Source of the DNA: an uncultured Solirubrobacterales bacterium
GTDB lineage: Bacteria > Actinomycetota > Thermoleophilia > Solirubrobacterales > JBBDJG01
Reading direction: 5' to 3'
NCBI GenBank assembly: GCA_963768885.1
Contig: CAVYJN010000006.1
Coordinates: forward strand, 373,258 to 437,257
DNA length: 64,000 bases
In this document: positions 40,053 to 42,807 of the stretch, in pieces
Layout: each line of letters starts with the position of its first letter
Numbering within the stretch: position 1 is the first letter of the stretch
The notes under the pieces: generated by a model
Database searches by the model: none
What the model was told of the DNA's origin: nothing
The model's input: only the letters and a program-made list of their open reading frames with translations
Program-made: the position numbers and the translations under genes

Positions 40053-42807
40053 ATGACCGACGCGGCGACAGGTGGCGTGTCCCGCGGGATCGACCCCACC
40101 GAGCGGGTCGACCTGCTCCTGCGCGACCTGCGCTCGTCCCGCACCGGCCTGTCTTCACGCGAGGCCGAGCGGCGGCTCGTGCAGTTCGGCCCCAACGAGC
40201 TGCGCCGCCGCGGGCGCCGCCGCTGGCCGCGCGAGCTCGCCGGCCAGTTCACGCACCCGCTCGCGCTGCTGCTGTGGGCGGCCGCCGCGCTCGCGTGGGT
40301 GGCCGGCGATCGAGGCGGTGGCGGTGGCGATCGTCGTGGTGATCGTGATCAACGCGGTGTTCGCGTTCCTCCAGGAGATGCAGGCGGAGCGCGCGGTCGA
40401 GGCGCTGGCCGCGTACCTGCCGCCGCAGGCGAAGGTGCTGCGCGACGGCCGCGTCGAGGCAGATCGAGGCGCGACGCCTCGTGCCCGGCGACGTGCTCGT
40501 CGTCGAGGCGGGCGACCGCATCTCGGCCGACGCCCGCCTGCTCGAAGGCGGCATCGAGGTGGACCTCTCGACGCTGACGGGCGAGTCGCTGCCGGCCTAC
40601 CGCGGCGGCGGAGCTGCTCGACAGCCGGGTGCCGCTGCTGCGAGGCGCGCGATCTGGTGTTCTCCGGAACGAACTGCACGGAGGGCGAGGCGCGCGCGCT
40701 CGTGTACGCGACCGGCATGCACACGGAGCTGGGCCGGATCGCGTCGCTGTCGGAGCGGGTGGAGCGGGAGCAGAGCCCGCTGGAGGGGCAGGTCCGCAGG
40801 GTGGCGTGGCTGATCGCGCTGATCGCCGTGGCCACCGCCGCGGCCTTCGTGCCGCTCGCGACGCTTCGTCGCCGGCCTGCCCGTCTCCGACGCGGTCGTG
40901 TTCGCGGTCGCCCTGCTGGTCGGCAACGTGCCGGAGGGGCTGCTGCCGGTGATCACGCTCGCGCTCGCGGTCGCGGTGCGCGGGCTGGTGCGCCGCGGCG
41001 CGGTGGTCAAGCGCCTCAGCGCCGTGGAGACGCTCGGCTCGACGAGCGTGATCTGCACCGACAAGACCGGCACGCTGACCGAGAACCGCATGCGCGTGAC
41101 GTCGATCTGGACGCCGGCGCAGGCGCTCGATCTCTCCGGCGGGAACGGCGCGTCGCGCCAGGCGACCGTGACGCCGTCACTGCGCGCGCTGGCCGACGTG
41201 CGATGGCGGCCTGCAACAACGCCCGGCTCGAGGCGCCCGGACAGCGGCACGCGGCGACCCCACCGAGGTCGCGATGCTGAGCGCGGCCGCCGCGCTCGGC
41301 GCCGACGTGGACGTCGCGAAACGCGACCGCGAGCGGCGCCGCCAGTTCCACTTCGACCCGACGCTCAAGCGGATGTCGACGGTCGACGAGCGCGACGGGG
41401 CGCTGTGGGTGGACACCAAGGGCGCGCCGGAGGCGCTGCTGCCGCGCTGCGACGACGATCCTCTGGACGCGACGGCGCAGAGCGGCCGCTCGGCGCCGGC
41501 GAGCGCGACGGAGGTCGCGAGCGCCGTCGAGCGCTACGCGGACGCAGGGCCTGCGCGTGCTCGCCGTCGCGCGCGGCCGGCTGGAGCCGGGCGACGCCGT
41601 GCCGGAGCGGCGCGAGCAGGCCGAGACCGGCCTGTGCCTTGCTCGGCCTGGTCGCGATGTTCGACCCGCCGCGGCCGGAGGTCGCCGCCGCGGTGGCGGG
41701 CTGCCACGAGGCCGGGATCCGCATCATCGTGATCACCGGCGACCACGGGCTCACGGCGGCCGCGATCGCGCGGCAGGTCGGCATCGCCCGCGACGGGCCG
41801 ACGGTCGTGACCGGCGCGGAGCTCGAACGCATGAGCGAGGACGAGCTCGACCGGCTGCTGCGCGAGGGCCGCGAGCTGATCTTCGCGCGCAGCTCGCCGG
41901 AGGCCAAGCTGCGCATCGCGGACGCGCTGCGCGCCGAGGGACACGTGGTGGCCATGACCGGCGACGGCGTCAACGACGCGCCCGGCGCTGCGCCGCGCCG
42001 ACATCGGCGTCGCGATGGGCCGCTCGGGCACGGACGTCGCGCGCGAGGCCTCGACCATGGTGCTGACCGACGACAACTTCGCGACGATCGTCGCCGCCGT
42101 GCGCGGCGGGCCGGCGGGTCTACGACAACATCCGCAAGTTCATGCTCTACATCTTCGCCCACACCACCCCGGAGGTGACGCCGGTGATGGTGTTCGCGCT
42201 CAGCGGCGGCGCGATCCCGTTGCCGCTCACGTCATGCAGCTGCTGGCCTTCGACGTCGGCACCGAGACCGTCCCGGCGCTGGCGCTCGGGCAGGAGGCCG
42301 CGGAGCCCGGCCTCATGCAGCGGCCGCCGCGCAAGCGCTCGGAGGGGGTGATCCAGCCGCCGATGCTGGTGCGCGCGTGGCTGTTCCTCGGGGTGATCTG
42401 CGCGATCCTCGCGATGGCCGGGTTCTTCTACGTGCTGCTGAAGGCGGGCTGGAGCCCGGGCGACCCGACCGGCGAGGGCGACCCCCTGCACCACGCCTAC
42501 CGGGAGGCGACGACCATGACCTTCTTCGGCATGGTCGCGGGCCAGATCGGGACCGCGTTCGCCGCCCGCACCGAGCGCGCGTCGCTGCGCTCGATCGGCG
42601 TCCTCAGCAACCGCCTGCTGCTGTGGGGGATCGCGTTCGAGCTGGTCCTCGCGGCGATGTTCATCTACCTGCCGCCGTTCCAGTCGCTGCTCGGCACGGA
42701 GGCGCTCGGCGCTCGACGCGCTGCTGTTCGCGGCGCCGTTCCCGTTCATCGTGTGGGGCGCGGACGAGCTGCGGCGCTGGCTCGTGCGCCGGCGCGCGTC
42801 TAAGTAG
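40053..42807 (+). pseudogene. P2-type (CtpF/Ca2+-ATPase-like) P-type ATPase shattered by about a dozen frameshifts
   Basis: Every canonical block is readable, but the blocks sit in alternating frames. Examples are [77 protein letters not shown] and NVPEGLLPVITLALAV...ICTDKTGTLTENRM. Further blocks are GDPTEVAML, KGAPEALL, LLGLVAMFDPPRPEV..ITGDHGLTAAAIA, AMTGDGVNDAP / ALRRADIGVAMG and [16 protein letters not shown] count ~13 frame switches, near 40310, 40460, 40605, 40650, 40862, 41195, 41245, 41548, 41640, 41988, 42105, 42228 and 42712. Confidence 0.85.

What the first reader, a model, noticed from the sequence alone, without database searches (positions are those of the whole stretch)
40053..42807. 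P-type ATPase with about 13 frame switches but no other visible damage
All diagnostic blocks of a CtpF/Ca2+-ATPase-like pump are present and well conserved at the amino-acid level. These include TGES, DKTGTLT, GDPTE, KGAPE, TGD, GDGVNDAP and the TM helices. The reading frame changes roughly every 200 nt. Within each segment I saw no premature stops or obvious degeneration. Neighbouring genes of 2.3-2.7 kb (4046-6772, 15590-18193, 29836-32301, 47137-49419, 58385-60817) are perfectly intact. Random sequencing error should not spare them, and ordinary old pseudogenes usually accumulate substitutions as well. The options are very recent indel-driven inactivation, a locally poor assembly (low coverage or a collapsed paralogue of the intact ATPase at 29836-32301), or a hypermutable locus. 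Several junctions lie next to GATCG or GC-repeat contexts, but I could not establish a consistent rule.
Basis: seen in the sequence. Interest (0 to 1): 0.6.

Follow-up and report, generated by a model that had tools for sequence, protein, structure and literature searches.

The report
Intact pump gene broken by assembly errors
A cation-pump gene that looks shattered by 16 reading-frame shifts is most likely an intact gene whose sequence carries single-base insertion errors from a long-read metagenome assembly, so it is an artefact and not a biological oddity.

Summary
Window 40053-42807 (+) encodes a P2-type cation ATPase interrupted by 16 frame changes. Thirteen are clean 1-nt insertions, one is a 1-nt deletion, and two are ambiguous. 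Removing them gives a 911-aa protein with no stops, 90% identical to an intact soil orthologue.

No substitutional decay is visible. Only 2 of 331 near-invariant columns deviate, dN/dS is 0.13-0.16, and there are fewer lineage-specific changes than in the intact orthologue.

The gene is not the only broken one. Three other genes in the window (NAPRTase, PEP synthase, an MgtE-like gene) carry five more shifts, all +1. That is about 8 per 100 kb, against about 580 per 100 kb in the ATPase.

The same insertion-biased, clustered shifts occur in related Nanopore-only soil MAG contigs: 29 '+1' against 8 '-1' in 607 kb. Illumina and isolate loci show few.

There are no repeat tracts and no GATC association. 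The intact ATPase at 29836-32301 is only 33% identical, too diverged to have been collapsed.

Best reading (about 0.8): a locally poor long-read consensus of a gene that is really intact. A genuine, very recent pseudogene is unlikely (about 0.12). Read mapping would settle it.

The parts
40053..42807 (+). P2-type cation-transporting ATPase gene. It reads as 911 aa once 16 frame changes are removed.
   Evidence: The repaired protein passes NCBIfam TIGR01494 (284 bits against a cut-off of 62) and aligns end to end with type IIA/IIC models below their equivalog cut-offs. The nearest solved structures are Na,K-ATPase alpha and Listeria Ca2+-ATPase LMCA1.
40303..40306 (+). +1 frame change (extra C or G in GGCCGG)
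40458..40459 (+). +1 frame change (extra G, GAGGCAG)
40603..40605 (+). +1 frame change (CGCGGCGG)
40640..40641 (+). +1 frame change, not in a homopolymer (CTGCGAG against CTCGAG in the orthologue)
40863..40864 (+). +1 frame change, not in a homopolymer (GACGCTTC)
41194..41199 (+). Frame change of +2 or -1 in a loop whose length varies among orthologues. The exact event is ambiguous.
   Evidence: 2-nt 'CG' excess against L001
41232..41251 (+). Frame change of +2 or -1, just before the GDPTE block. The exact event is ambiguous.
41453..41455 (+). +1 frame change, not in a homopolymer (GCGACGACG)
41468..41470 (+). +1 frame change, not in a homopolymer (GGACGCGAC)
41510..41511 (+). +1 frame change (GACGGAGG)
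41544..41544 (+). +1 frame change, not in a homopolymer (GGACGCAGG)
41634..41636 (+). +1 frame change, not in a homopolymer (CTGTGCC)
41980..41985 (+). +1 frame change inside the GDGVNDA|P hinge motif (GCCCGG)
42107..42112 (+). +1 frame change (GGCGGGCC)
42232..42233 (+). -1 frame change, the only clean deletion (ACG-TCATG against ACGATCATG in the orthologue)
42713..42714 (+). +1 frame change, not in a homopolymer (GCGCTCGAC)
208..1587 (-). Nicotinate phosphoribosyltransferase gene with two +1 frame changes (about 1147 and 1300). This is the same error signature outside the finding.
   Evidence: Pfam NAPRTase_N lies in one frame only. tblastx to L021 shows three query frames against a single frame in the orthologue. 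Frame map.
1672..3881 (-). PEP synthase (PpsA-type) gene with two +1 frame changes (about 2174 and 3636)
   Evidence: The Pfam domains PPDK_N, PEP-utilizers and PEP-utilizers_C are split over three frames. Frameshift-aware alignment to the L005 orthologue.
11559..12270 (+). CBS/MgtE-like transporter gene with one +1 frame change (about 12057)
   Evidence: CBS lies in one frame and MgtE profile positions 70-125 in the next. The frame map shows a switch with no stop codon.

Best explanation
The organism most probably carries an intact, functional P2-type cation ATPase here. The organism is a high-GC member of the Thermoleophilia/Solirubrobacterales, represented by a 1.38-Mb metagenome contig.

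The 16 frame changes are errors of the assembled consensus. Nearly all are spurious single-base insertions. This is the residual error type of a long-read-only (Nanopore-style) metagenome assembly that was not polished with short reads. They pile up in this 2.7-kb gene because read support was locally poor.

Shown: the damage pattern, the lack of any selective relaxation, the same +1 errors elsewhere in the window, and the same spectrum and clustering in related long-read MAGs.

Inferred: that the window itself is such an assembly, and the cause of the local hot spot. Candidate causes are a low-coverage accessory segment, or reads from a second strain or copy with a different gene order mapping only across this block. 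In the second case a likelihood-based consensus would keep both alleles of a SNP as an extra base.
For: 1. Indel-only damage. The repaired ORF has no stops and is 90% identical to intact P0001. Only 2 deviations occur at 331 near-invariant columns of a 121-sequence alignment, within the 0-6 range of intact homologues. dN/dS against L001 is 0.13-0.16, with 68% of differences at codon position 3. Lineage-specific changes at conserved columns number 11 in the window against 21 in the intact orthologue.

2. Insertion bias. In the ATPase there are 13 '+1' changes against 1 clean '-1'. In the whole window 18 of 21 are '+1' (P = 0.0015). Seven of the 13 insertions are not in a mononucleotide run.

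3. The gene is not unique. Five more +1 shifts occur in NAPRTase, PEP synthase and the MgtE-like gene.

4. Same signature in the same data type.
- ATPase orthologues in the long-read MAG loci L051, L071 and L036 carry 5 internal frameshifts, all +1.
- A GC3 frame-switch survey gives 29 '+1' against 8 '-1' in 607 kb of 'MFD...bin' loci (6.1 per 100 kb).
- The same survey gives 7 against 5 in 472 kb of Illumina-MAG and isolate loci.
- L011 has 5 '+1' shifts within 3.4 kb, across three genes.
- Those MAGs are Nanopore-only: metaFlye plus one round of Medaka (PMC12313526). Soil long-read assemblies are reported to have more frameshift errors (PMC13087279).

5. Provenance. The source contig is 1,383,028 bp and is held by NCBI and ENA. 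Its own gene call P0203 is one of the broken pieces. The nearest relatives are such MAGs.

6. Flank. Illumina contigs of the same species (L083-L085) match the flank 38293-40270 at 98.4-98.9% with no gaps.
Against: No reads or independent assembly of this species cover any of the 16 sites. The Illumina contigs stop 33 nt before the first one. Protein and JGI searches found nothing closer than 88-91% identity. The artefact is therefore inferred and has not been observed.

I could not retrieve the source record, so its sequencing technology is a guess.

The roughly 70-fold local excess over the rest of the window is unexplained by sequence. There is no composition anomaly, no repeats and no motif.

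The other frameshifted genes (NAPRTase, PEP synthase) sit next to this ATPase in some relatives (L005, L021). That would also fit coordinated real loss of a functional module.
Confidence: 0.8

Rival explanations
1. This is a genuine, very recently inactivated pseudogene. After a first disabling mutation the gene accumulated many small indels, and the sequence is correct as assembled.
For: The ORF is broken in the deposited sequence, and the source's own annotation calls only fragments (P0203). Truncated copies of this ATPase are common on long contigs, including isolate genomes. The other frameshifted genes in the window belong to the same stress/dormancy-type neighbourhood in relatives, so module loss is conceivable.
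Against: Neutral decay long enough for 16 indels should also leave many substitutions. This rests on my general knowledge of substitution-to-indel ratios, not on a test here. Even at 3 substitutions per indel, about 13 hits at the 331 near-invariant columns are expected, against 2 observed (Poisson P = 3e-4). At 5 per indel, P = 2e-7.

The window lineage shows fewer amino-acid changes than the intact orthologue (11 against 21), and dN/dS is 0.13-0.16. There are no stops in the repaired frame.

From general knowledge, not tested here: spontaneous bacterial indels are deletion-biased and concentrated in homopolymers. Here 13 of 14 resolvable events are insertions and 7 of those 13 lie outside runs.

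The same +1 spectrum appears across unrelated genes in many long-read MAGs.
Confidence: 0.12
2. A locus-specific biological process repeatedly adds single bases to this gene. Examples would be an insertional hypermutator, a contingency locus, or programmed recoding.
For: The shifts are extremely localised (P about 2e-18) and nearly uniform in direction (+1).
Against: There are no simple-sequence tracts at the junctions and no flanking repeats. No shared motif was found: GATC P = 0.34, and the best k-mer 'GACGC' reaches P about 0.01 before multiple-test correction.

Orthologues use one frame. Sixty-six of 80 loci give a single tblastn HSP. Only 5 of the other 14 show frame changes within the orthologue, and those are 1-3 +1/-1 shifts at non-homologous positions. 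The other 9 merely have a second, paralogous hit elsewhere in the locus. So nothing is conserved that could be a recoding signal.

Identical +1 shifts occur in unrelated genes and in other MAGs.
Confidence: 0.03
3. This is a mis-assembly caused by collapse or cross-polishing with the intact P-type ATPase at 29836-32301.
For: A second P-type ATPase does lie 8 kb away in the same window.
Against: The two proteins share only 33% identity over 601 residues. At the DNA level, the only match of the 29836-32301 region to the closely related ATPase gene of L001 was about 170 nt at 71%. That is far too diverged for reads to cross-map.
Confidence: 0.01

Closest known systems
Residual indel (frameshift) errors in Nanopore-only metagenome assemblies (metaFlye + Medaka MAGs)
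   Same: The damage is indel-only and fragments gene calls. Other genes on the same contig are affected. The rate outside the hot spot (about 8 per 100 kb) matches what I measured in related 'MFD' long-read MAG loci (6.1 per 100 kb). Those loci show the same +1 bias and local clusters (L011). The literature notes frameshift truncation as the typical artefact, worse in soil data sets (PMC9262707, PMC13087279, PMC12313526).
   Different: The density here (16 in 2.75 kb) is about 70-fold above the contig's background. Published descriptions stress homopolymer indels, whereas about half of these insertions are not in homopolymers. The technology of this particular contig could not be verified.
P2-type (IIA-like) cation-transporting ATPases of Actinomycetota, e.g. 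M. tuberculosis CtpF, and Listeria LMCA1
   Same: The repaired protein has the full architecture and all catalytic motifs. It aligns end to end with type IIA/IIC models and with LMCA1 and Na,K-ATPase structures. As for ctpF in the DosR regulon (from my own knowledge, not tested here), it sits among hemerythrin, CBS, universal-stress-protein-like and ribosome-hibernation-factor-like genes.
   Different: Scores are below every equivalog cut-off (551 against 798 bits for IIA2), so the transported ion is not assignable. Orthology to CtpF was not tested.
Bacterial pseudogenes in reductively evolving genomes (e.g. Mycobacterium leprae, recent symbionts)
   Same: It is a conserved gene interrupted by frameshifts.
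   Different: From general knowledge, such pseudogenes show deletion bias, substitutions, stops and relaxed dN/dS. Here the changes are almost all insertions, dN/dS is 0.13-0.16, there are no stops, and there is no excess of amino-acid change.

Membership tests
P-type ATPase, type II (cation-transporting) | Catalytic motifs: DKTGT phosphorylation site, TGES in the actuator domain, the GDGxNDxP hinge, and PEGL in M4 | tested here: met
   All are present in the repaired translation. One frameshift (41980-85) lies inside the GDGVNDA|P motif.
P-type ATPase, type II (cation-transporting) | Family model score above the curated cut-off, with full-length architecture | tested here: met
   TIGR01494 scores 284 bits against a cut-off of 62. 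The alignment to IIA2 covers residues 29-908. Orthologues carry Cation_ATPase_N, E1-E2_ATPase, Hydrolase and Cation_ATPase_C.
Ca2+-ATPase (IIA equivalogs: PMR1-type, SERCA-type) | Score above the equivalog cut-off | tested here: not met
   551.6 against 798.3 bits (TIGR01522) and 486.6 against 703.4 bits (TIGR01116). The gene is not filed as a Ca2+ pump and its ion specificity is left open.
True (evolutionary) pseudogene | Reading frame disrupted in the genome sequence | tested here: met
   There are 16 frame changes in the assembled sequence.
True (evolutionary) pseudogene | Relaxed selection: excess non-synonymous change, loss of invariant residues, in-frame stops | tested here: not met
   dN/dS is 0.13-0.16. 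Lineage-specific changes are 11 against 21 in the intact orthologue. Only 2 of 331 near-invariant columns deviate. There are no stops.
True (evolutionary) pseudogene | Lesions present in the DNA of the organism (supported by reads or an independent assembly) | not testable with these tools
   No reads are available. No same-species contig covers the sites.
Long-read consensus indel artefact | Indels without accompanying substitutions, in a direction and context untypical of spontaneous mutation | tested here: met
   There are 13 insertions against 1 clean deletion, and 7 of the 13 lie outside mononucleotide runs.
Long-read consensus indel artefact | Same error spectrum elsewhere in the same assembly and in assemblies of the same kind | tested here: met
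   Five further +1 shifts occur in three other genes. Related Nanopore MAG loci give 29 '+1' against 8 '-1', with clusters.
Long-read consensus indel artefact | The contig derives from an unpolished long-read assembly, and the extra bases lack read support | not testable with these tools
   Only indirect evidence: a 1.38-Mb contig in NCBI and ENA, with relatives that are MFD Nanopore MAGs.
Contingency / phase-variable locus | Simple-sequence repeat tract at the frameshift site | tested here: not met
   There is no SSR at any junction. Only three weak 12-20-nt tandem arrays were found, none at a junction.
Programmed ribosomal frameshifting / recoding | Shift site and signal conserved in orthologues | tested here: not met
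   Sixty-six of 80 orthologous loci give a single tblastn HSP. Only 5 loci show frame changes within the orthologue, and these are sporadic and at other positions.

The most novel reading that the evidence does not exclude
The insertions are real and reflect a localised, insertion-specific mutational process acting on a stress/dormancy-island pump and a few linked genes. It would leave substitutions untouched, for example an error-prone gap-filling or editing activity targeted to this block.
Probability: 0.03. Interest if true: 0.7.

Novelty: not a real feature. Interest (0 to 1): 0.1.

Why it matters
As biology it most likely does not matter: the pump is probably intact. The practical lessons are these.
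- Long-read-only soil MAGs can contain kilobase-scale hot spots of +1 insertion errors that mimic 'shattered' genes.
- Such errors inflate pseudogene counts and break functional annotation. Here they affect a P-type ATPase, PEP synthase, NAPRTase and an MgtE-like transporter.
- A simple test separates them from real decay without reads: indel direction, homopolymer context, dN/dS and a lineage-specific rate test.

If the insertions were real, a process producing about 15 insertions with no substitutions in one gene would be unprecedented.

Tried and rejected
1. Identifying the source record. Exact look-ups of window proteins found the dodecin and archease on a 1,383,028-bp NCBI/ENA contig. The contig itself could not be fetched.

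2. Finding an independent assembly of the same species across the shifts.
- The Illumina contigs L083-L085 (98.4-98.9% identity) end at 40270, 33 nt before the first shift.
- Protein searches with the variable middle segment and with the N-terminal 281 aa found nothing closer than 91%.
- An exact 32-mer scan of JGI metagenomes found nothing.

3. The gene has 27 GATC sites and 3 of 14 junctions lie within 8 nt of one (permutation P = 0.34). GATC is generally over-represented in the window.

4. k-mer enrichment at the junctions. 'GAC|G'-type contexts occur at 5 of 14 sites and recur in L051, but this is not significant after multiple testing.

5. A 'both alleles of a wobble SNP retained' signature. 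Every +1 site can be placed at a codon 3/1 boundary. Random insertions would do so about two thirds of the time, so this test lacks power. I kept it only as a possible mechanism.

6. Collapse with the ATPase at 29836-32301. Rejected, because the proteins are only 33% identical.

7. Repeats, tandem arrays, tRNAs and Rfam families around the locus. Nothing relevant.
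Full report
**What is there**

The window is about 73% G+C. Between 40053 and 42807 on the + strand the three forward frames together spell a complete P-type ATPase.

A stitched translation retrieved thousands of full-length homologues. 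The best is P0001 (911 aa, 88% identity), from a forest-soil metagenome contig, L001.

I aligned P0001 to the window DNA with a frameshift-aware alignment. I also made a nucleotide alignment to L001:5253-7988, which is 88% identical. Together they place the frame changes as follows.
- Thirteen are single extra bases: 40303-06, 40458-59, 40603-05, 40640-41, 40863-64, 41453-55, 41468-70, 41510-11, 41544, 41634-36, 41980-85, 42107-12 and 42713-14.
- One is a clean single-base deletion at 42232/33.
- Two are '+2 or -1' changes in a loop whose length varies among orthologues, at about 41194-99 and 41232-51.

Removing them gives a 911-aa protein with no stop codon, 90% identical to P0001 and containing every catalytic motif.

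The repaired protein passes the general P-type ATPase model. It aligns end to end with type IIA/IIC models but falls below their equivalog cut-offs. Its nearest solved structures are Na,K-ATPase and the Listeria Ca2+-ATPase. It is a P2-type cation pump of unassigned ion specificity.

**Is there other damage?**

No. I aligned the repaired protein with 120 homologues. It deviates at 2 of 331 near-invariant columns, while intact homologues deviate at 0-6.

Against L001, dN/dS is 0.13-0.16 and 68% of nucleotide differences are at third codon positions. At columns where 39 outgroup sequences agree, the window lineage has 11 private amino-acid changes and the intact P0001 lineage has 21.

The gene has therefore been under purifying selection essentially up to the present. 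Suppose the 16 indels had accumulated neutrally with only three substitutions per indel. About 13 hits at the near-invariant columns would then be expected, against 2 observed (P = 3e-4). At five per indel, P = 2e-7. The ratios are my assumption from general knowledge.

**The neighbours are not all clean**

I built a frame map from the strong GC3 signal, using a Viterbi pass over six coding frames and a non-coding state. It shows long uninterrupted frames for 12.3-40 kb and 42.8-64 kb. It also shows five further frame switches without a stop codon in the first 12 kb.

Pfam confirms them.
- A PEP synthase has its PPDK_N, PEP-utilizers and PEP-utilizers_C domains split over three frames, with shifts at about 3636 and 2174.
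- A nicotinate phosphoribosyltransferase has its N-terminal domain in a frame of its own, with shifts at about 1300 and 1147.
- A CBS/MgtE-like gene changes frame at about 12057.

Orthologues fetched for other reasons are in a single frame: PEP synthase in L005 and NAPRTase in L021.

All five shifts are of the +1 type. The rate is about 8 per 100 kb outside the ATPase and about 580 per 100 kb inside it. Sixteen of 21 events fall in 4.3% of the window (P about 2e-18).

**The signature points to the assembly, not to mutation**

Thirteen of the 14 resolvable ATPase events are insertions, and 18 of 21 in the window are +1 (P = 0.0015). Seven of the 13 insertions are not extensions of a mononucleotide run. 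From general knowledge, spontaneous bacterial indels are deletion-biased and homopolymer-centred.

The nearest relatives of the locus are Thermoleophilia/Solirubrobacterales MAGs, many named 'MFD...bin'. These are Nanopore-only assemblies made with metaFlye and one round of Medaka (PMC12313526).
- In the ATPase orthologues of such MAGs, the five internal frameshifts I found (L051, L071, L036) are all +1.
- Applying the frame-switch detector to 607 kb of these loci gave 29 '+1' against 8 '-1' (P = 0.0008; 6.1 per 100 kb).
- In 472 kb of Illumina-MAG and isolate loci it gave 7 against 5. Seven of those 12 come from one draft isolate.
- The shifts also cluster. L011 has five +1 shifts in 3.4 kb, breaking a sugar kinase, a PiT phosphate transporter and an alcohol dehydrogenase.

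The window's background rate, its +1 bias and its clustering therefore all match this class of assembly.

The window's own contig is 1,383,028 bp and is held by NCBI and ENA. One of its deposited gene calls, P0203, is simply the broken piece 41088-42178.

**What I could not show**

No reads or independent assembly cover the shifts.
- Illumina contigs of the same species match the flank 38293-40270 at 98.4-98.9% without a single gap, but they end 33 nt before the first shift.
- Protein searches with two segments and an exact-word scan of JGI metagenomes found no same-species sequence.

The cause of the hot spot is also inferred. The ATPase block has different neighbours in the closest relative L001. 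Two explanations are plausible and untested.
- It may be a low-coverage accessory segment.
- Reads from a second strain or copy may align only across this block. A likelihood-based consensus that penalises substitutions more than deletions would then keep both alleles of a SNP as an extra base.

Every +1 site is compatible with such doubling at a codon boundary. Random insertions would be compatible about two thirds of the time, so this is not evidence.

**Ideas tested and dropped**

- GATC is not enriched at the junctions (P = 0.34). It is merely abundant in the window: 599 sites against 411 ± 17 expected.
- No k-mer survives multiple testing.
- No simple-sequence tracts or flanking repeats exist at the locus.
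- The intact ATPase at 29836-32301 is only 33% identical, so it cannot have been collapsed with this gene.
- Programmed recoding is excluded. Sixty-six of 80 orthologous loci give a single tblastn HSP. Of the other 14, only 5 show frame changes within the orthologue, and those are sporadic and at different positions. The remaining 9 only have a second, paralogous hit elsewhere in the locus.

**Verdict**

The best explanation (about 0.8) is an insertion-biased long-read consensus artefact in a gene that is really intact.

A genuine, very recent pseudogene (about 0.12) would need 16 indels, almost all insertions, with no accompanying substitutions. A locus-specific insertional process (about 0.03) has no support.

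Interest is low. Read mapping or short-read polishing would settle the matter.

Noticed in passing
window 208-1587 (-), 1672-3881 (-), 11559-12270 (+): Three further genes are frameshifted: NAPRTase, PEP synthase and a CBS/MgtE-like transporter. They carry five shifts, all of the +1 type.
   Followed up: yes
L011 17231-21722 (MAG MFD02199.bin.1.40): Five +1 frame switches lie within 3.4 kb. They split a sugar kinase, a PiT phosphate transporter and a zinc alcohol dehydrogenase. This is the same kind of cluster as in the window's ATPase.
   Followed up: partly
L051 ~11426; L071 ~12254; L036 ~11108, 11409, 11509: ATPase orthologues in three other long-read MAGs each carry one to three frameshifts, all +1. 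The one in L051 sits in a 'CGAC|G' context like several of the window's sites.
   Followed up: partly
window 32687-39875 and 42874-45593: The ATPase sits in a stress/dormancy-style neighbourhood. By my reading of the ORF translations (no family search run), a long ORF looks like a ribosome hibernation factor (32687-33619, -) and another looks like a universal stress protein (33442-34047, +). By family matches, there are a hemerythrin (34281-34790), RtcB (37847-39346, -) with archease (39270-39668, -), a dodecin (39675-39875, -), an M50-CBS peptidase, a ZIP transporter and a HAD hydrolase. The relative L001 has the same genes in a different order.
   Followed up: partly
whole window: GATC occurs 599 times against 411 ± 17 in dinucleotide-preserving shuffles. 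This over-representation is probably a codon-usage effect. It explains why junctions seemed to lie near GATCG.
   Followed up: partly
protein database hits: Many 200-480-aa fragments of this ATPase family sit on long contigs (tens of kb to Mb), including isolate genomes such as Nonomuraea salmonea (L055, with +1/-1 shifts). Broken copies of this gene are therefore common in public assemblies.
   Followed up: no
window 33078-34357, 36180-36899, 6726-7409, 27761-28284: These stretches of 0.5-1.3 kb have weak or no GC3 coding signal. At least two overlap ORFs that appear to be real genes: the N-terminal half of the FAD-dependent hydroxylase ORF (36280-37827, family match) and a universal-stress-protein-like ORF (33442-34047, read from its translation only). 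No Rfam family or tRNA was found anywhere in the window.
   Followed up: no
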